From the sequence record OQ031073: a stretch of DNA of 39,356 bases; one strand, 5' to 3'. Of this stretch, positions 4,343-29,092 are shown in pieces. A program made the translations under genes and the position numbers. Below the pieces are notes generated by a model. The model was not told the DNA's origin. It made no database searches and saw nothing but the letters and a program-made list of their open reading frames with translations. Positions within the stretch are counted from its first letter, which is position 1, and every line of letters begins with the position of its first letter. The stretch is from Shigella phage SFP21B.

Positions 4343-4365
4343 ATTACACCCTCACTATAGGGACT
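4343..4365 (+). promoter_or_regulatory. phage RNAP promoter (phi13-like), ATTACACCCTCACTATAGGGACT
   Basis: 23-nt match to the window promoter consensus (core CCTCACTATAGG), flanked by inverted repeat GGCCTATAG/CTATAGGCC. Confidence 0.8.
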
Positions 4366-15251: not shown

Positions 15252-17011
15252 GTCAAGACTTAGCAGCGCGTCAGGCGCTTATGACTGCCCGTATGAAGGC
15301 AGACTTCGTGTTCTTCCTGTTCGTTCTGTGGAAAGCTCTGTCACTTCCCGTTCCGACTCGCTGTCAGATTGACATGGCGAAGAAGCTATCGGCTGGGGAC
15401 AACAGGCGCTTCATCTTGCAGGCGTTCCGTGGTATCGGGAAGTCCTTCATTACGTGTGCCTTCGTGGTCTGGAAGCTATGGAATAACCCGGACTTGAAGT
15501 TCATGATTGTGTCGGCCTCAAAGGAACGAGCCGATGCGAACTCAATCTTCATCAAGCGTATCATCGACCTCATGCCTCAGCTCCAAGAGTTGAAGCCTAA
15601 GCAGGGGCAGCGAGACGCAGTAATCAGCTTTGACGTAGGACCTGCCAAGCCTGACCACTCTCCTTCGGTTAAGTCCGTTGGTATCACTGGTCAGTTAACT
15701 GGTAGCCGTGCTGACATCCTGATTGCCGATGACGTAGAGGTCCCCGGTAACTCCGCTACTCAGGCAGCACGGGACCGACTGTCAGAGCTGGTGAAAGAGT
15801 TCGACGCAATCCTGAAGCCGGGTGGTACGGTTATCTATCTGGGTACTCCTCAGACCGAGATGACCTTGTATCGACAGCTTGAAGGTCGTGGTTACTCAAC
15901 TACCATCTGGCCTGCCCGCTACCCACGTGATGAGAAGGACTGGAAGTCTTACGGCGACCGTCTGGCCCCGATGCTTCAGGCCGAGCTTGAGTCCGACCCT
16001 GAGGGCTACTACTGGCTCCCTACCGATGAGGTTCGATTCGACGATGAGGACTTGAGGGAACGTGAGCTGTCTTACGGTAAGGCTGGCTTCGCTCTCCAGT
16101 TCATGCTCAACCCGAACCTTGGTGATGCCGAGAAATACCCGCTGAAGCTGCGTGACCTTATCGTAGCGGACTTGGACCCTGAGTCAAGCCCTATGGTCTA
16201 CCAGTGGCTCCCGAACCTTCAGAACAAGCGTGAGGACGTTCCTAACGTGGGACTCATGGGTGATTCCTACCACACGTATCAGACTGTAGGTTCTGCCTTC
16301 AGTTCGTACACCCAGAAGATTCTGGTCATTGACCCCAGTGGTCGTGGTAAGGATGAGACCGGGTATGCGGTACTGTATCAGCTCAACGGCTACATCTTCG
16401 TGATGGAAGCTGGTGGTATGCGCGGTGGCTATGAGGACTCTACGCTGGAGTCTCTGGCGAAGATTGGTCGCAAGTGGAAGATTAACGAGTACGTCATTGA
16501 GGGTAACTTCGGTGATGGTATGTATCTCGAACTCTTCAAGCCTGTGGCGGCTCGTATTCACCCGGCAGCAGTAACTGAGGTCAAGAGCAAGGGTCAGAAG
16601 GAACTACGCATCTGTGACGTTCTGGAGCCTATCATGGGGTCCCACAGACTCATCGTGAACTCCTCGACCATTGTGTCTGACTACCAGACTGCCGCTGACA
16701 AGGATGGCGTCCGTAACCCTATCTACTCCCTGTTCTACCAGATGACCCGTATCAGCCGTGAACGTGGGGCCTTGGCACACGATGACCGACTTGATGCTCT
16801 GGCTATCGGTGTACAGTTCTTCGTAGAGTCTATGGCTAAGGATGCCGTTAAGGGACAGCGTGAAGTCACCGAGGAGTGGCTGGAGGAACAGATGGAAGAC
16901 CCACGGAAAGGCTTTAAGTCCATCGAGACGGACTACTGGGACAATGGGGTCCGGGTCCAGTTCAATACAGATGATGACTTGGGCTTAGGGTCCTACGTAC
17001 AGTTCCACTAG
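15248..17011 (+). CDS. 19: terminase large subunit (gp19)
   Basis: 587 aa; T7 gp19-like (CQIDMAKKL, Walker [67 protein letters not shown]); apparent TTG start with SD AAGGAGGTGA 7 nt upstream, overlapping Rz stop. Confidence 0.95.
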
Positions 17012-17103
17012 CAGTTTGCATAAAGTACCGCATTAGTTGCATGAATACGCACTATGTAAGTCGGTACATAACGCTCGTAACTCTATGTATTCCTTAGGAA
17101 AAT

Positions 17104-17126
17104 CTTATACCCTCACTATAGGAAAG
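17104..17126 (+). promoter_or_regulatory. phage RNAP promoter (phiOR-like), CTTATACCCTCACTATAGGAAAG
   Basis: consensus core; located between terminase and gene 19.5 as in T7. Confidence 0.8.
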
Positions 17127-17300
17127 ACCCCCGGTTACTTATAGTAAAGACTCAATGAATAATCATATGCACACTTTATGCAAGACCTTAGGAGGCAGAC
17201 TCCTGAGTTCTTACCTAAGGCTAGCACCGATGGAGAGGGTGATTGTAATCATCACACCCTCATAACTTAAGTAGACCCTAAGCGACAGGAGGTATGTAGC

Positions 17301-17459
17301 ATGGGTAAGACCAAAGCTGTTCTCAAAGCTCTGGCGACCAATAGAGCTACATACAGGTTTCTTGCTGCTGTTCTACTTGCTGCTGGCGTTACTGCTGGAA
17401 GTCAGTGGGTCGGGTGGGTCGAGACTCTCGTATGTACTCTGGTGTCTGAGTGTAATTAA
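17301..17459 (+). CDS. 19.5: gp19.5-like small protein
   Basis: 52 aa ORF not in the supplied track (<60 aa); SD AGGAGGT; resembles T7 gp19.5 as remembered (ATYRFLAAVLLAAG ... ETLVCTLVSEC). Confidence 0.65.
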   Translation: MGKTKAVLKALATNRATYRFLAAVLLAAGVTAGSQWVGWVETLVCTLVSECN

Positions 17460-17697
17460 CGCCATCATGGTAACAATCAACGAAAGACGGACCTAAGGTC
17501 AGTTCATAGCTGACGCTGCTCTACTGACCTTAGCTACTGTAGTCAAGGACTTTAGGTAACACCTTAAGAGAAGCTCACTTAGGGTCATCCTACTCACTGG
17601 TCTACCCTAGTGTCGCCTGACCTACGGTCCTTGACCTACAGTGGCTGAGGCCTACAGTAGGGACGATGAGTTTTGGACCAAAAGTTTGAGACCACAT

Positions 17698-17900
17698 CTC
17701 ACAGTTCAAGAACCTCAAGTCTCCCCCATAGGCCCTCTTTCAGTCTCGACCAAAGGCCCTACCCCTAGACCTTCGGTCTAAACCTCAAGTCTTTGACCCG
17801 AAGTCGACCCGAAGTCTGGACCGATAGGGCCTATATCTTGTGGTTGGGACGATGGGTCGGGACTATATGTTGTGTCCTTGAGTCGCTATCTGTAACAGCC
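17698..17900 (+). repeat. inferred genome terminus and terminal-repeat region (single collapsed copy); boundaries approximate
   Basis: TCTCACAGT...CCCCCATAGG at 17698 matches the start of the T7 left end as remembered; right edge near TATCTGTAACAG...CCTACAGT by analogy to T7 terminal repeat end. Confidence 0.4.
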
Positions 17901-18217: not shown

Positions 18218-18246
18218 TTGACAGTAGGTCTAACTTTTGGTTTAAT
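18218..18246 (+). promoter_or_regulatory. host sigma70-type early promoter (A1-like)
   Basis: TTGACA -35, 17-nt spacer containing GTCTAAC as in T7 A1, -10 TTTAAT. Confidence 0.5.
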
Positions 18247-18373: not shown

Positions 18374-18403
18374 TTGACAAGCAGTAACGACTTAAAGTAG
18401 TAT
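18374..18403 (+). promoter_or_regulatory. host sigma70-type early promoter (A3-like)
   Basis: TTGACA -35, 18-nt spacer, -10 TAGTAT, followed by GTACCACAT as in T7 A3. Confidence 0.5.
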
Positions 18404-18610
18404 GTACCACATCAAAACGGTGAGGCCCAACACTGAAACGGGATAGCAAGGCGACGACAGTCATTGCGAATGCTCTTTAACAATCTGGATAAACTCTTAA
18501 TGTGCGCCGATAGCGACTAACTACAGGGTCTTTGAGTCTACCGCGAGACGGGCCTGACTTGAGCGACTGAAGGCCCTGACTGATAGTCACTAACTTAAAG
18601 GATACACATC

Positions 18611-19063
18611 ATGATTTACACTAACGAACCAGCCAACGTTTTCTATGTGCTCGTGTCTGCCGCTCGTGCTAACCTGTCTGATATGGCTAACATGGCCCGT
18701 CAGTTAGACCTTAAGGCACTGCTGCAAGCAGAACCTGAATACTACGGTGTGCTCGAATGCACTGGGCTTACAGGCTGCTACCGCGAGGAGGGACAAGAGG
18801 TCGCCACTGAAGAGAGAACCTACCGTGTGCGCTGTGAGTCCAAGGCTCAAGCTATCAACGTTGCACGACTGGCCTGCAATGACTTTGAGCAAGACTGCGT
18901 GATGGTCTACAAGTCTCAGACTCACACGGCTGGCCTGATGTTCTGCAAAGGCTTGGACGGCTACAAGACCACACGTCTGAACGGGTCATTCCAGCAAGTC
19001 GATGCACCAAAGGGCGAATGCTTCACGAAAGACGCTGAAGGGCGCTTCTGGGAGGTTGTGTAA
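18611..19063 (+). CDS. 0.3: S-adenosylmethionine lyase/hydrolase (T3 gene 0.3 type anti-restriction protein)
   Basis: 150 aa; strongly resembles T3 SAMase as remembered (EPANVFYVLVSA, TGCYRE, RVRCESKAQAINVARLACN, CVMVYKSQTHTAGL); SD AAGGA. Confidence 0.88.
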   Translation: MIYTNEPANVFYVLVSAARANLSDMANMARQLDLKALLQAEPEYYGVLECTGLTGCYREEGQEVATEERTYRVRCESKAQAINVARLACNDFEQDCVMVYKSQTHTAGLMFCKGLDGYKTTRLNGSFQQVDAPKGECFTKDAEGRFWEVV

Positions 19064-19064
19064 G

Positions 19065-19268
19065 ATGGTTAACTCATACCCTAATCACATCAAGCCATGG
19101 ATAACGGTTGATATTGAGACCGTGGGCGACTCCAAGTTTGTGACCATACGGTCAAGTATACACGTTAACAAGGAGTTCAAACTTCCGCATAGCTATAGCC
19201 TGAGCTGGGGAGACTGGGAGATTCTGCGTGATGGCGCTTTCCTCAAGTACGCAAGGAGGTTCTACTGA
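19065..19268 (+). CDS. hypothetical early protein
   Basis: 68 aa from first ATG after 0.3 stop (TAAGATG); ORF track 19002 start overlaps 0.3 and is less likely. Confidence 0.45.
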   Translation: MVNSYPNHIKPWITVDIETVGDSKFVTIRSSIHVNKEFKLPHSYSLSWGDWEILRDGAFLKYARRFY

Positions 19269-19487: not shown

Positions 19488-20222
19488 ATGAACGCACACG
19501 ATAAAGTAATCATGAATAACCTGATGTCCCAGCTTCACGCTATCATCTGTCAGGCTGACTACAAGGTGGAGTCGCTGGGGTCTGGCATAGCTGCGCAAGA
19601 CCGCTGGGGAGCCTTTGAGATACTGGCGAGGGAACATGGTTACAGGCTGTTAGGACTGGGACACTTCGCCGCTGCCTTTGAGCATGAGGACCTGCCGGGA
19701 TATGCAATCAAGGTGGGCTTCAAGAAGGATGACTCAGGCGCTGCATATGCGGCCTTCTGCCGAGAGAATGAGGGTCTGGCTGGACTACCAGTCATCCATC
19801 TGGTCAAGCGCTTCAGCAGGGCGTACATGGTGGCTATGGACAAGTACCGCTCACTAAATGACATCGGCGGGGACTACTGCCGGGACGGTGAGACCTACGA
19901 GCAACGAGTCTTAAGCGTGTCATGGCGTGTAGTCAATGCGGTGATAGACCACTGCGAGCCACCATCTGAGGCCCTGAGCTGGTGGTTGGACCAAGACGCG
20001 CGAGCTGAGTTTGCACACGTCGAGACTCAATATATTAAAGACCTTGCGCAGACTGCACGTAAGATTCACACGTTCTTCTACGGTCTGGCATCGTTCGACA
20101 CGCACCGAGCTAACGTGATGGTCGATAACAACGGGCGCTTGATAATCACAGACCCAGTGTCTTGGACTCAGGCAGACCATCAAGACGAGCTGCAAGGCAG
20201 GCTGAACGCAATAGCTGAGTGA
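19488..20222 (+). CDS. 0.7: serine/threonine protein kinase (gp0.7), kinase domain only
   Basis: T7 gp0.7 kinase-domain similarity (GHFAAAFEH, VGFKKDDSGAAYAAFCR, ITDPVS); first ATG with SD AGAAGGAAA; track start 19455 is TTG upstream in frame. Confidence 0.88.
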   Translation: MNAHDKVIMNNLMSQLHAIICQADYKVESLGSGIAAQDRWGAFEILAREHGYRLLGLGHFAAAFEHEDLPGYAIKVGFKKDDSGAAYAAFCRENEGLAGLPVIHLVKRFSRAYMVAMDKYRSLNDIGGDYCRDGETYEQRVLSVSWRVVNAVIDHCEPPSEALSWWLDQDARAEFAHVETQYIKDLAQTARKIHTFFYGLASFDTHRANVMVDNNGRLIITDPVSWTQADHQDELQGRLNAIAE

Positions 20223-20815: not shown

Positions 20816-20838
20816 ATTAAACCCTCACTATAGGACTC
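20816..20838 (+). promoter_or_regulatory. phage RNAP promoter located upstream of the RNAP gene, GATTAAACCCTCACTATAGGACT
   Basis: full consensus match 70 nt upstream of gene 1 ATG, followed by stem-loop GGTCT...AGACC. Confidence 0.75.
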
Positions 20839-20908
20839 AAGGTCTAAGACTCCAGTTTAAAGACCAAAGAGACTTTAAGTGAAAGACTAACAAACAAGGA
20901 CTTTAAGT

Positions 20909-23575
20909 ATGAGCGTCATTCAGCTTGAGAAGCACGACTTCTCGGACATCTCCAACGCAATCGAGCCATTCAACATTCTGGCTGACCACTACGGTCAGGA
21001 CCTCGCAGTAAAACAGCTTCAGCTAGAGCATGAGGCATACACTGAAGGCGAGCGTCGTTTCATTAAGAACCTTGAGCGTCAGGCTGAGCGCGGGGAGCTG
21101 GCTGATAATCAGGTCGCAAGACCATTGATGCAAACTCTGGTCCCAAAGCTGGCGCAAGCCGTCAAGGAATGGCATGAGACCCAAGGGTCAACCCGTGGGA
21201 AACCTCAGGTCGCCTTCCTGAAGCTGAGCACTGAGAACAAGCCTCGTGAGCTTCTGGTCAAGCCTGAGTCGGTGGCAGTCATCGTCCTGAAGATTGCACT
21301 TAGCAAGCTGGTCAAGCCTGAAGGCGTACCGATTACGCCGATGGCCTCCGCTATAGGCCGCACACTGGAAGATGAAATCCGCTTCGGTCGCATCCGTGAC
21401 CAAGAGCAGGAGCACTTCAAGAAGACCATAGCTGAGAACCTGAAGAAACGCGCTGGCGTGGCCTACAAGAAAGCCTACATGCAAGCGGTCGAGGCCTCCA
21501 TGCTGGACCAGAAGCAACTGGCTGATGCGTGGGGGACTTGGAGTCCTGACGAGGCAGTACACGTAGGCATCAAGATGCTTGAGCTGCTGATTCAGTCCAC
21601 ACAACTGGTTGAGCTGAAGCGTCACAACGCCGGGAACGTAGCGTCAGACGTAGAAATGGTCCACCTGTCAGACTTCTGGGCCAAGAAGATGGCTCAGCGT
21701 GGTTACAGCCTTGCGGGTATCGCTCCGGTCTACCAACCTTGTGTCGTGCCTCCACGTCCTTGGAACTCGGTGGTCGGTGGCGGGTACTGGGCTAAAGGTC
21801 GCAGACCTCTCCCGCTGATGCGCTTAGGGTCGAAGGCCGCTATCGCTCGCTACGAGGAAGTTTACATGCCTGAAGTCTACGAGGCAGTGAACATCATTCA
21901 GCAGACTCCTTGGAAGGTGAACAAGAAGGTGCTGGACGTGGTTAACATGGTCGAGAAGCTGAACAATACTCCTATCGCAGACATCCCTCAGATGGACCCG
22001 ATGAAGCCTGAAGACTACAACGGGGAGACTGAAGAGGAGCTGAAGGCGTGGAAGAAAGCTGCTGCTGGCATCTACCGCCGCGAGAAGGCCCGACAGTCCC
22101 GCCGTTTGTCTCTGAGCTTCATCGTAGGACAGGCGAACAAGTTCTCTCAGTTCAAGGCCATTTGGTTCCCGTACAACATGGACTGGCGCGGTCGCGTCTA
22201 CGCTGTCCCGATGTTCAACCCACAAGGCAACGATATGCAGAAGGGTCTGCTGACTCTGGCAGTCGGTAAGCCAATTGGTGCGGACGGCTTCAAGTGGCTG
22301 AAGGTCCACGGTGCAAACTGTGCGGGTGTCGATAAAGTCACCTTCGAGGAGCGCATCAAGTGGGTAGAAGACAACCACGACAACATCCTCGCGGCTGCTA
22401 AGAGTCCGATGGATAGTATCGACTGGTGGGGCAAGCTGGACTCTCCGTTCTGCTTCCTCGCGTTCTGCTTCGAGTATGCTGGGGTCATGCACCACGGGCT
22501 GAGCTACTCCTGCTCTCTACCTATCGCGTTCGATGGGTCCTGCTCCGGGATTCAGCACTTCAGCGCGATGCTTCGTGACCACGTTGGTGGACATGCGGTT
22601 AACCTGACGCCAAGCGGGAAGGTTCAAGACATCTACCGCATTGTGTCCGACCGTGTGGAAGAACAGCTTAAGGAACTGCTGGTCAACGGTAGCGACAACG
22701 AGGTGAAGACTTTCGAGGACAAGAAGACAGGCGAGATTACTGAACGTATGGTCCTTGGAACTCGTGAGCTGGCCCGTCAGTGGTTGACCTACGGTATGTC
22801 ACGCTCGGTCACTAAACGCTCGGTAATGACTCTGGCATACGGGTCGAAAGAGTACGGGTTCGCGGACCAAGTGTTTGAGGACACCGTGATGCCAGCGATT
22901 GACAATGGCAAGGGTGCGATGTTCACAGACCCAAGCCAAGCGTCCCGCTTCATGGCTAAGATGATTTGGGATGCAGTAAGCGTGACCGTGGTTGCTGCGG
23001 TAGACGCGATGAAGTGGCTGCAAGGTGCGGCTAAACTGCTGGCTTCTGAGGTCAAGGACAAGAAGACCAAAGAGGTCCTGAAGCCTTGCCTCCCGGTACA
23101 CTGGGTCACGCCTGATGGGTTCCCGGTCTGGCAGGAGTACCGCAAGAAGGACACCACACGTCTGGACCTGATGTTCCTCGGTACTTTCCGTCTGCAACCT
23201 ACCGTCAACAAAAGCGGGAGCAAGGAGCTGGACAAACACAAGCAGGAGTCAGGCATTAGCCCGAACTTTGTACACTCACAAGACGGCAGTCACCTGAGGA
23301 AGACTGTGGTCCACACTCACCGCAAGTATGGCGTGATGTCCTTCGCAGTGATTCACGATAGCTTCGGGACCATCCCGGCTGACGCTGAGTTCCTGTTCAA
23401 AGGTGTCCGTGAGACGATGGTCGAGACCTACCGCGACAACGATGTGCTGCAAGACTTCTACGAGCAGTTCGCGGACCAGCTTCATGAGAGTCAGCGCGAC
23501 AAGTTGCCTGAGCTTCCGAAGCGCGGTAAACTGAACATCGAAGACATTCTGTTATCTGACTTTGCATTCGCCTAA
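20909..23575 (+). CDS. 1: single-subunit DNA-directed RNA polymerase (gp1)
   Basis: 888 aa; collinear with T7 RNAP (FSDI, PFNILADHYG, PCVVPPRPW, AIWFPYNMDWRGRVYAV, DGSCSGIQHFSAMLRD, RSVTKRSVMTLAYGS, HDSFGT, SDFAFA C-terminus). Confidence 0.98.
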   Translation: MSVIQLEKHDFSDISNAIEPFNILADHYGQDLAVKQLQLEHEAYTEGERRFIKNLERQAERGELADNQVARPLMQTLVPKLAQAVKEWHETQGSTRGKPQVAFLKLSTENKPRELLVKPESVAVIVLKIALSKLVKPEGVPITPMASAIGRTLEDEIRFGRIRDQEQEHFKKTIAENLKKRAGVAYKKAYMQAVEASMLDQKQLADAWGTWSPDEAVHVGIKMLELLIQSTQLVELKRHNAGNVASDVEMVHLSDFWAKKMAQRGYSLAGIAPVYQPCVVPPRPWNSVVGGGYWAKGRRPLPLMRLGSKAAIARYEEVYMPEVYEAVNIIQQTPWKVNKKVLDVVNMVEKLNNTPIADIPQMDPMKPEDYNGETEEELKAWKKAAAGIYRREKARQSRRLSLSFIVGQANKFSQFKAIWFPYNMDWRGRVYAVPMFNPQGNDMQKGLLTLAVGKPIGADGFKWLKVHGANCAGVDKVTFEERIKWVEDNHDNILAAAKSPMDSIDWWGKLDSPFCFLAFCFEYAGVMHHGLSYSCSLPIAFDGSCSGIQHFSAMLRDHVGGHAVNLTPSGKVQDIYRIVSDRVEEQLKELLVNGSDNEVKTFEDKKTGEITERMVLGTRELARQWLTYGMSRSVTKRSVMTLAYGSKEYGFADQVFEDTVMPAIDNGKGAMFTDPSQASRFMAKMIWDAVSVTVVAAVDAMKWLQGAAKLLASEVKDKKTKEVLKPCLPVHWVTPDGFPVWQEYRKKDTTRLDLMFLGTFRLQPTVNKSGSKELDKHKQESGISPNFVHSQDGSHLRKTVVHTHRKYGVMSFAVIHDSFGTIPADAEFLFKGVRETMVETYRDNDVLQDFYEQFADQLHESQRDKLPELPKRGKLNIEDILLSDFAFA

Positions 23576-29023: not shown

Positions 29024-29046
29024 CTTAAACACTCACTAAAGGGATG
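29024..29046 (+). promoter_or_regulatory. phage RNAP promoter variant upstream of primase-helicase, CTTAAACACTCACTAAAGGGATG
   Basis: core ACTCACTAAAGGGA (A at -10, A at -3; T3-like -3). Confidence 0.65.
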
Positions 29047-29092
29047 ACCACTTTCGGTTGTCCCTTCGTTCGCATTATTGATTAAGGAGTGA

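What the first reader, a model, noticed from the sequence alone, without database searches (positions are those of the whole stretch)
18611..19063. T3-type SAM lyase instead of an Ocr-type DNA mimic at gene 0.3
The first early gene encodes a 150-aa protein closely resembling T3 SAMase (EPANVFYVLVSA, TGCYRE, VYKSQTHTAGL), not the acidic Ocr of T7. This implies anti-restriction by depleting the methyl donor, and also marks the phage as a T3/T7 mosaic: T3-type 0.3 with T7-like -3 promoter positions in most promoters.
Basis: partly seen in the sequence, partly recalled or inferred. Interest (0 to 1): 0.45.

Follow-up and report, generated by a model that had tools for sequence, protein, structure and literature searches.

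The report
T3-type SAM lyase, already annotated
The first gene this phage expresses is an ordinary, already catalogued copy of the phage T3 enzyme that destroys the host's methyl donor SAM to disarm restriction and BREX defences, but the phage is a K1F-like virus, not a T3/T7 hybrid.

Summary
Window 18611-19063 (+) is a 150-aa ORF matching Pfam S-AdoMet_lyase (E=3e-40) and the solved T3 SAM lyase (E=2e-57, 63% identity; predicted fold TM 0.91 to 8BB1). All tested SAM-binding residues (G55, Y57, E68, Q94, D95) and the conserved MetK-contact residues (T4, N9, Q103, T104, H105) are retained, and dN/dS is about 0.05-0.07. It is the first gene after the physical left end (17697), behind two host-type promoters and an R0.3-like RNase III hairpin.

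The functional reading, defence evasion by SAM depletion, is well supported by homology. It should be updated to lyase activity plus probable MetK inhibition, acting against type I R-M and BREX.

The "T3/T7 mosaic" reading is not supported. The window is a permuted Kayfunavirus genome whose RNA polymerase is 89% identical to K1F's but only 64% to both T3's and T7's. The SAM lyase is as far from T3's as the polymerase is. The promoter difference lies at -2, not -3.

Slot 0.3 is exchangeable within the genus: K1F, Ro45lw and Ro103C3lw carry Ocr there, with sharp boundaries. The exact protein is already deposited (WBF69710.1, Shigella phage SFP21B). Ordinary, low interest.

The parts
17697..17886 (.). 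Physical left end of the phage genome and the approximately 190-bp direct terminal repeat. The window is a circularly permuted assembly.
   Evidence: Window 17697 aligns to base 1 of the Ro45lw, K1F, T3, Pisces and Ro103C3lw records. Those records annotate a 190-bp terminal repeat. The repeat's extent in the window is inferred by homology only.
18218..18246 (+). Host sigma-70-type early promoter (A1-like): TTGACA, 17 nt, TTTAAT
   Evidence: Relaxed consensus scan, 11 of 12 matches. It lies in the same region as the annotated A1-A3 promoters of T3. Function is inferred.
18374..18403 (+). Host sigma-70-type early promoter (A2/A3-like): TTGACA, 18 nt, TAGTAT, followed by GTACCACAT as in T3 A2
   Evidence: Found by the tool scan with 10 of 12 matches and by my own scan. 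The sequence after the -10 element, GTACCACAT, is identical to T3 A2.
18511..18592 (+). R0.3-like RNase III processing hairpin: lower stem, internal loop, upper stem
   Evidence: MFE -30.3 kcal/mol, z=-3.27, with 1 of 200 shuffles folding as well. It has the same architecture and similar flanking sequence as the annotated T3 R0.3 site (z=-3.43), and it is conserved in Ro45lw (z=-3.78). No Rfam family matches.
18598..18602 (+). Shine-Dalgarno AAGGA, 8 nt upstream of the ATG
   Evidence: Read directly from the sequence.
18611..19063 (+). Gene 0.3: T3-type S-adenosylmethionine lyase, 150 aa
   Evidence: Sequence and fold: Pfam PF23780 E=3.4e-40; T3 SAM lyase chains of PDB 7OCK/8BB1 E=1.6e-57; AlphaFold2 pLDDT 89.8 with TM 0.91 to 8BB1_E. 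Residues and selection: catalytic and MetK-contact residues conserved; dN/dS 0.05-0.07 against SFP20 and GW1. Database status: the exact sequence is WBF69710.1 of Shigella phage SFP21B.
19065..19268 (+). 67-aa DUF7300 ORF, replaced together with the SAM lyase in Ocr-carrying relatives. It is probably an independent early-gene module.
   Evidence: Pfam PF23974 E=1.4e-26. Similarity to Ro45lw and Ro103C3lw is lost from about 18595 to 19267 and resumes at 19268. Homologues occur in Acinetobacter, Pseudomonas and Vibrio phages that are absent from the SAM lyase hit tallies, and the ORF diverges independently of the lyase in relatives.

Best explanation
Gene 0.3 of this Kayfunavirus encodes a functional T3-type SAM lyase. 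It is the first gene to enter the cell. Host RNA polymerase transcribes it from two sigma-70 promoters near the left end, and the transcript is probably trimmed at an RNase III hairpin before translation from an AAGGA ribosome-binding site. The protein cleaves S-adenosylmethionine into 5'-methylthioadenosine and homoserine lactone by positioning SAM for intramolecular attack. It probably also clamps onto the host SAM synthase MetK through its N-terminal tail and beta4-beta5 loop, which blocks resynthesis of SAM and stabilises the lyase. The resulting drop in SAM disables SAM-dependent defences (type I restriction-modification and BREX) before the rest of the unmodified genome enters.

What is shown here is the homology, the fold, the residue conservation, purifying selection and the early-gene context. 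The catalysis, the MetK binding and the anti-defence effect are inferred from experiments on the T3 orthologue.
For: Family and fold:
- Pfam S-AdoMet_lyase E=3.4e-40 over residues 13-149.
- T3 SAM lyase chains of 7OCK/8BB1 at E=1.6e-57, and E=9e-79 with a family profile.
- Predicted structure pLDDT 89.8, pTM 0.84. Its best PDB match is 8BB1_E, the T3 SAM lyase bound to MetK, at TM 0.91, rmsd 1.9 A, E=1e-20.

Residues:
- The T3 residues whose mutation lowers or abolishes activity, E68 and Q94 together with D95, are identical here. So are G55 and Y57, which I infer to be equivalent to Svi3-3 G56 and Y58 (mutant data from bioRxiv 10.1101/2023.02.27.530186 and PMC7877911).
- In a 37-sequence family alignment, G55, Q94 and D95 are invariant, E68 is 36/37, and Y57 is Y or F.
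- The MetK contacts reported as strictly conserved (T4, N9, Q103, T104, H105) plus M1, I2, E6, A8 and T106 are identical. F3Y and K5N fall within natural family variation.

Selection: dN/dS is 0.047 against SFP20 and 0.068 against GW1.

Context: first ORF after the left end, two sigma-70-type promoters, an R0.3-like hairpin with z=-3.3, and no phage promoter between the left end and the gene.

Mechanistic precedent: T3 SAMase is a lyase (PMC7877911). It inhibits MetK (PMC8406200) and counters BREX (10.1101/2023.02.27.530186).
Against: - There is no biochemical or genetic test on this protein.
- It is only 63% identical to T3's enzyme, and its predicted pI is 4.96 against 8.22 for T3, so kinetics, oligomeric state or partner affinity could differ.
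- Two N-tail MetK contacts differ (F3Y, K5N).
- The equivalence of G55/Y57 to Svi3-3 G56/Y58 is my inference from the motif. Svi3-3 could not be aligned by sequence and matched only weakly by fold (6ZM9, E=0.014, TM about 0.4).
- The T3 internal start 0.3B keeps its Met28 but has lost its GAGGTG Shine-Dalgarno, so a second product is unlikely here.
- The host and its defence repertoire are not known from the window.
Confidence: 0.88

Rival explanations
1. It is a SAM-dependent methyltransferase, as the PHROG family label and RefSeq product names for orthologues say.
For: phrog_2226 carries the description 'SAM-dependent methyltransferase'. RefSeq copies of GW1, SFPH2, IMM-002 and T3 use that product name.
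Against: The label is propagated annotation, and even T3 gp0.3 itself carries it. Pfam gives only S-AdoMet_lyase and no methyltransferase domain. The predicted fold is the T3 SAM lyase beta-barrel, and no methyltransferase appears in the top 50 PDB matches. T3 gp0.3 was shown experimentally to cleave SAM (PMC7877911).
Confidence: 0.01
2. It is a SAM hydrolase producing MTA and homoserine, as GenBank records for SFP20, SFP21B and GW1 state.
For: The product name 'S-adenosyl-L-methionine hydrolase' appears in many records.
Against: TLC and NMR showed that T3 SAMase, Svi3-3 and Orf1 form homoserine lactone. Homoserine arises later by spontaneous hydrolysis (PMC7877911). The SAM-positioning residues are the same here.
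Confidence: 0.03
3. It is catalytically weak or dead and acts mainly as a stoichiometric MetK inhibitor or binder.
For: The catalytically dead T3 E68Q/Q94A mutant keeps partial anti-BREX activity through MetK binding. The N-terminal MetK-binding tail is the most conserved segment, and it is kept even in the 38%-identical Pisces protein and in the truncated Dev2 protein.
Against: All known SAM-binding residues are intact and are invariant or nearly so across the family. Purifying selection acts over the whole length.
Confidence: 0.05
4. The gene was recently acquired from a T3-like phage, making this genome a T3/T7 mosaic.
For: The promoters combine T3-like C at -10/-11 with a T7-like T at -2. 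The 0.3 slot is demonstrably exchangeable within the genus.
Against: The SAM lyase is 63% identical to T3's, no closer than the RNA polymerase at 64.5%. At nucleotide level only a 174-nt stretch aligns to T3, at 74%. The polymerase is equidistant from T3 and T7 and 89% identical to K1F's. The whole genome is 86-93% identical to many Kayfunaviruses. At least 30 phage records carry this same allele at 80% or more.
Confidence: 0.03

Closest known systems
Bacteriophage T3 gp0.3 SAM lyase (SAMase; PDB 7OCK, 8BB1; Pfam PF23780)
   Same: Same family, same predicted fold (TM 0.91), same length class (150 vs 152 aa). Identical SAM-binding residues (G55, Y57, E68, Q94, D95) and identical conserved MetK contacts (T4, N9, Q103, T104, H105). 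Same genomic position as the first early gene, behind host promoters and an RNase III site.
   Different: 63% identity and one 2-residue deletion near residue 130. Predicted pI 4.96 against 8.22. F3Y and K5N in the MetK-binding tail. Two rather than three strong host promoters were detected. The Shine-Dalgarno of the internal 0.3B start is not conserved. It resides in a different genus (Kayfunavirus rather than Teetrevirus).
Orthologues in Kayfunavirus phages: SFP21B (identical, WBF69710.1), SFP20 (99.3%), CHRF_30030, phi1_146013, EV136_1, GW1 (96.7%)
   Same: Same allele, same flanking genes (DUF7300, a 41-aa ORF, short kinase, RNA polymerase), and already annotated as S-adenosyl-L-methionine hydrolase.
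   Different: Essentially nothing. There are 0-5% amino-acid differences, mostly conservative.
Ocr DNA mimic (T7 gp0.3; K1F, Ro45lw, Ro103C3lw gp0.3; Pfam PF08684)
   Same: Occupies the same slot and has the same timing of expression. It serves the same end, neutralising type I R-M and BREX.
   Different: Unrelated sequence and fold. Ocr is a stoichiometric DNA mimic that binds the defence enzymes, whereas this protein is an enzyme acting on a metabolite. No Ocr homologue is present in this window.
Svi3-3 / Orf1-type trimeric PII-like SAM lyases (PDB 6ZM9, 6ZMG) and SAM-AMP lyases (PDB 9GAD)
   Same: Same reaction chemistry and, according to the literature's structure-guided alignment, the same few SAM-positioning residues.
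   Different: Not detectable by a sequence profile. The fold match is only weak (E=0.014, TM 0.37-0.42). Those enzymes are trimers with active sites at the subunit interfaces, and they lack the MetK-binding residues.

Membership tests
T3-type SAM lyase (Pfam PF23780 S-AdoMet_lyase) | Sequence match to the family model above its curated threshold | tested here: met
   137.5 bits against a cutoff of 28, E=3.4e-40, covering model positions 1-132 of 133. T3 enzyme in the PDB at E=1.6e-57.
T3-type SAM lyase (Pfam PF23780 S-AdoMet_lyase) | Beta-barrel fold with two outer helices, as in the solved T3 enzyme | tested here: met
   AlphaFold2 model with pLDDT 89.8. Foldseek top hit 8BB1_E at TM 0.91/0.92 and rmsd 1.9 A. 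This is a predicted structure, not an experimental one.
T3-type SAM lyase (Pfam PF23780 S-AdoMet_lyase) | SAM-positioning residues: T3 E68 and Q94 (both mutationally validated), D95, and the G-x-Y motif (G55, Y57) | tested here: met
   All five are identical. Across 37 family members, G55, Q94 and D95 are invariant, E68 is 36/37 and Y57 is Y or F.
T3-type SAM lyase (Pfam PF23780 S-AdoMet_lyase) | MetK-contact residues reported as strictly conserved among T3-like SAMases (T4, N9, Q103, T104, H105) | tested here: met
   All are identical, and all are invariant in the 37-sequence alignment. The residue list comes from bioRxiv 10.1101/2023.02.27.530186.
T3-type SAM lyase (Pfam PF23780 S-AdoMet_lyase) | Class I (early) gene at the genome left end, transcribed by host RNA polymerase | tested here: met
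   First ORF, 915 nt from the left end. Two sigma-70-type promoters and an R0.3-like hairpin. No phage promoter lies upstream. Transcription itself was not measured.
T3-type SAM lyase (Pfam PF23780 S-AdoMet_lyase) | Enzymatic cleavage of SAM to MTA and homoserine lactone | not testable with these tools
   Requires an in vitro assay (HPLC, TLC or NMR) on the purified protein.
T3-type SAM lyase (Pfam PF23780 S-AdoMet_lyase) | Physical binding to and inhibition of host MetK | not testable with these tools
   Requires a pull-down or an activity assay. Only conservation of the interface residues could be checked.
Ocr DNA mimic (Pfam PF08684) | Sequence match to the Ocr model | tested here: not met
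   No PF08684 hit for this protein at E<=1. The same scan gives E=1.5e-30 for Ro45lw gp0.3 and E=3.6e-32 for K1F gp0.3. tblastn of three Ocr proteins against the window gives a best E of 0.12.
Svi3-3-type trimeric PII-like SAM lyase | Detectable sequence or fold similarity to Svi3-3 (PDB 6ZM9, 6ZMG) | tested here: inconclusive
   The profile search of the PDB does not reach it at E<=10. Foldseek places 6ZM9 at rank 6 with E=0.014, TM 0.37/0.42 and rmsd 8.1 A. This is consistent with the distant relationship claimed in PMC7877911 but not with membership of that subfamily.
SAM-dependent methyltransferase (database label) | Methyltransferase domain or fold | tested here: not met
   No methyltransferase Pfam family hits at E<=1, and there is no methyltransferase among the top 50 PDB fold matches.

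The most novel reading that the evidence does not exclude
The most novel reading that remains open is that this Kayfunavirus allele is functionally tuned away from T3's enzyme. It is acidic (pI about 5 against about 8) and carries F3Y and K5N in the MetK-binding tail. It might therefore be matched to the MetK of a different host range (Shigella, Enterobacter, Cronobacter, Salmonella), or it might have different partners. In that case, the frequent swapping of SAM lyase, divergent SAM lyase and Ocr alleles at slot 0.3 between near-identical backbones would be a host-defence-driven determinant of host range. The swap junctions lie just downstream of the R0.3 hairpin, upstream of the ribosome-binding site, and at the conserved 41-aa ORF.
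Probability: 0.12. Interest if true: 0.35.

Novelty: already known. Interest (0 to 1): 0.1.

Why it matters
For annotation, it confirms that this phage counters SAM-dependent defences (type I R-M and BREX) enzymatically rather than with a DNA mimic. That is relevant when choosing or engineering such phages for therapy against Shigella and other Enterobacteriaceae. It also flags two stale database labels for this family, "SAM-dependent methyltransferase" and "hydrolase". It opens no new question: the identical protein is already deposited and named, the family has a Pfam model and solved structures, and the mechanism was worked out on T3. The one modestly useful by-product is the documented within-genus alternation of SAM lyase and Ocr at one slot with sharp junctions.

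Tried and rejected
1. A 37-sequence profile search of the PDB found only the T3 enzyme. By fold, 6ZM9 appears only weakly. Residue equivalences to Svi3-3 therefore rest on the published structure-guided alignment, not on my own test.

2. A two-gene "SAM lyase + DUF7300" anti-defence cassette. I rejected this as a dedicated pair. DUF7300 homologues occur in Acinetobacter, Pseudomonas and Vibrio phages, and Acinetobacter and Pseudomonas do not appear among the listed genera of SAM lyase hits. In relatives with a 98%-identical lyase, such as ENT2, EV136_1 and phi1_146013, the DUF7300 protein is only 55-68% identical.

3. Recent import from T3. Rejected on the distances.

4. A hidden Ocr elsewhere in the window. 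None found.

5. An Rfam match for the upstream leader or hairpin. None found.

6. A T3-like internal start 0.3B. Met28 is kept, but the upstream GAGGTG is replaced by ATGGCT, so I do not propose a second product.

7. A full cross-tabulation of SAM lyase against Ocr among all Kayfunaviruses. Output lists are capped at 60 rows, so only lower bounds were obtained.

8. Folding the 176-nt leader as a whole gave no signal (z=-0.36). Only the 90-nt hairpin is significant.

Full report
**Observation**

The window holds an ATG-initiated ORF at 18611-19063 on the + strand, encoding 150 aa.

- It matches Pfam PF23780, S-AdoMet_lyase, at E=3.4e-40. That is 137.5 bits against a curated cutoff of 28, over nearly the whole model.
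- It matches the T3 SAM lyase chains of PDB entries 7OCK and 8BB1 at E=1.6e-57.
- A global alignment with T3 gp0.3 gives 95 identities over 150 aligned positions (63%), with a single 2-residue gap.
- It has no similarity to Ocr. PF08684 does not hit it, although the same model scores E=1e-30 to 1e-32 on the gene 0.3 proteins of Ro45lw and K1F.
- Three Ocr proteins searched against the whole window give nothing better than E=0.12.

**What the window is**

The window is a circularly permuted, complete genome of a Kayfunavirus, the K1F-like genus of Studiervirinae.

- Its right-hand 22 kb is 93% identical to Cronobacter phage GW1 and 92% to Shigella phage SFP20. It is 86-91% identical to dozens of Shigella, Enterobacter, Salmonella, Escherichia and Klebsiella phages, and SFP20, GW1, Dev2, Ro45lw, K1F, Ro103C3lw and Pisces are recorded as Kayfunavirus.
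- The physical left end maps to window 17697, which aligns to base 1 of five linear records.
- Gene 0.3 therefore starts 915 nt from the end, compared with 901 nt in T3, and it is the first gene.
- The exact 150-aa sequence is already in NCBI as WBF69710.1, "S-adenosyl-L-methionine hydrolase [Shigella phage SFP21B]". The current taxonomy places that phage in the species Kayfunavirus SFP21B.
- The identical protein also sits in the same gene neighbourhood on roughly 40-kb contigs from human gut and other metagenomes.

**Is it a working SAM lyase?**

The literature on the T3 enzyme and on Svi3-3 identifies a very small set of SAM-positioning residues. Svi3-3 G56, Y58, E69, Q104 and E105 are the ones named (PMC7877911).

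- T3 E68 and Q94 are their validated equivalents. E68Q and Q94A each lower activity about five-fold, and the double mutant is dead. D95 was also targeted (bioRxiv 10.1101/2023.02.27.530186).
- Here E68, Q94 and D95 are identical. So are G55 and Y57 of the TGCYRE motif, whose equivalence to Svi3-3 G56/Y58 is my inference.
- In a 37-member alignment spanning 49-97% identity, G55, Q94 and D95 are invariant, E68 is 36/37, and Y57 is Y or F.
- An AlphaFold2 model is confident (pLDDT 89.8, pTM 0.84). Its best PDB match is the T3 SAM lyase bound to MetK, 8BB1_E, at TM 0.91 and rmsd 1.9 A. Svi3-3 (6ZM9) appears only at rank 6 with TM about 0.4.
- The gene is under strong purifying selection: dN/dS is 0.047 against SFP20 and 0.068 against GW1, with dS up to 0.32.

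T3 SAMase was shown to be a lyase giving MTA and homoserine lactone, not a hydrolase (PMC7877911). The GenBank label "hydrolase" and the RefSeq/PHROG label "SAM-dependent methyltransferase" are therefore outdated or wrong.

**Second mechanism**

T3 SAMase also binds the host SAM synthase MetK, inhibits it, is stabilised by it, and thereby also defeats BREX (PMC8406200; 10.1101/2023.02.27.530186).

- The contacts come from the N-terminal tail (M1-K5, A8, N9) and the beta4-beta5 loop (Q103, T104, T106). H105-E6 stabilises the tail.
- T4, N9, Q103, T104 and H105 were reported as strictly conserved among T3-like enzymes.
- All of these are identical here and invariant in my alignment. Only F3Y and K5N differ, and both lie within natural variation: Y/F/H at position 3 and K/N/R at position 5.

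MetK binding is therefore likely but untested. One difference of unknown meaning is the predicted pI, 4.96 here against 8.22 in T3.

**Expression context**

- Upstream on the + strand lie two strong sigma-70-type promoters. One is TTGACA-17-TTTAAT at 18218-18246. The other is TTGACA-18-TAGTAT at 18374-18403, followed by the same GTACCACAT as T3's A2.
- A 82-nt hairpin at 18511-18592 has the architecture and flanks of T3's annotated R0.3 RNase III site. Its z-score is -3.27, against -3.43 for T3, and it is conserved in Ro45lw.
- An AAGGA Shine-Dalgarno sits 8 nt before the ATG.
- No phage-type promoter lies between the left end and the gene. The first one fires at 20833, just before the RNA polymerase gene.
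- T3's internal start 0.3B keeps its Met28, but its GAGGTG ribosome-binding site is lost.

**The mosaic claim**

Twelve phage promoters fit the consensus TTAAACCCTCACTATAGG.

- They carry C at -9/-10/-11 (11 of 12) and A at -12 (11 of 12), which is T3-like at the -10 to -12 specificity positions. They carry T at -2 in 11 of 12, which is T7-like.
- The same consensus occurs in GW1, SFP20 and Ro103C3lw.
- The window's RNA polymerase has Asp at the position of T7 N748, as T3 does, whereas K1F has Asn and ACTATCACTATAGG promoters. This looks like a co-evolved enzyme-promoter pair inside the genus.
- The polymerase is 88.7% identical to K1F's and equidistant from T3's (64.5%) and T7's (64.0%).
- The SAM lyase is 63% identical to T3's, so it is no closer than the backbone. 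Only 174 nt align to T3, at 74%.

The genome is therefore not a T3/T7 mosaic, and the gene is not a recent T3 import.

**What is true about modularity**

Slot 0.3 is exchangeable within the genus.

- Ro45lw matches the window at 90% from the left end to 18594, 17 nt before the ATG. It then carries a 166-aa Ocr plus a 51-aa ORF, and similarity resumes at 19268.
- Ro103C3lw has a polymerase 98.5% identical to the window's and 92% nt identity from 20289 onward. It carries a 110-aa Ocr in the slot.
- K1F carries a 169-aa Ocr.
- Pisces carries a third SAM lyase lineage, 38% identical to both this protein and T3's, yet it keeps the N-terminal MIYTNE.ANVFYV.
- Dev2 keeps only the first 47 or so residues, fused to unrelated sequence.
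- Among the 60 best polymerase matches, at least 17 distinct phages carry this SAM lyase allele and at least 6 carry an Ocr. Capped lists leave the rest undetermined.

The 67-aa DUF7300 ORF that is swapped along with the lyase is not a dedicated partner.

**Verdict**

The finding is real and its core functional interpretation is right. However, it describes a known, already-annotated gene in a known genus, and the mosaic inference is wrong. Novelty: already known. Interest: low.

Noticed in passing
window 20909-23575 (RNA polymerase) and promoters with +1 at 4360, 11645, 17121, 20833, 24345, 26195, 27052, 31399, 35451, 38270, 39246: Polymerase and promoters co-vary inside Kayfunavirus. This phage, GW1, SFP20 and Ro103C3lw use AAACCCTCACTATAGG, and the window's polymerase has Asp at the T7-N748 position (RLDLMF, as in T3). 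K1F, Ro45lw, Pisces and Dev2 use AACTATCACTA(A/T)AGG, and the K1F polymerase has Asn (RLNLMF, as in T7).
   Followed up: partly
window 29025-29047 (+1 at 29041): One deviant phage promoter, CTTAAACACTCACTAAAGGGATG, has A at -10 and A at -2, unlike the other eleven.
   Followed up: no
window 20817-20839, upstream of the RNA polymerase gene at 20909: A consensus phage promoter sits immediately upstream of the phage RNA polymerase gene itself, which would allow positive feedback. K1F, Ro45lw, Ro103C3lw, Pisces and Dev2 have one at the same place.
   Followed up: partly
window 19488-20222: The gene 0.7-type protein kinase is short, 244 aa against 369 aa in T3. This suggests it lacks most of the C-terminal region present in the T3/T7 protein. 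The gene is absent altogether from Ro45lw, Ro103C3lw and K1F. My Pfam copy gave no hit, but precomputed hits on identical contigs list PF27024 Phage_T7_kinase.
   Followed up: partly
L004 (Cronobacter phage Dev2) 759-1076: Dev2 gp0.2 is a 105-aa protein. It keeps the first 47 or so residues of this SAM lyase, including the MetK-binding tail, fused to unrelated sequence, and it lacks all catalytic residues. It could be a remnant or a MetK-binding-only protein.
   Followed up: no
L009 (Escherichia phage Pisces) 922-1386: A third SAM lyase lineage occupies the same slot. It is 38% identical to both this protein and T3's, but its N-terminal 13 residues are nearly identical. Nucleotide similarity to the window runs 39 nt into the gene and then stops.
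   Followed up: partly
window 19065-19268: A 67-aa DUF7300 protein (Pfam E=1.4e-26) of unknown function. Homologues occur in the early regions of Acinetobacter Friunavirus-like phages and Vibrio VP3/VP4, and in Pseudomonas siphophages.
   Followed up: partly
window 17011-17697 and 1-1050: The record is circularly permuted. It starts at the major capsid gene, and the true genome ends lie at 17696/17697. The roughly 190-bp terminal repeat appears to be present once only. The metagenome contigs carrying the identical protein show the same junction, with the terminase gene directly preceding the left-end region.
   Followed up: partly
window 18671-18700: T3's in-frame internal initiation site 0.3B (GAGGTG, 5 nt, ATG at Met28) is not conserved. 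The Met is kept but the Shine-Dalgarno is replaced by ATGGCT.
   Followed up: partly
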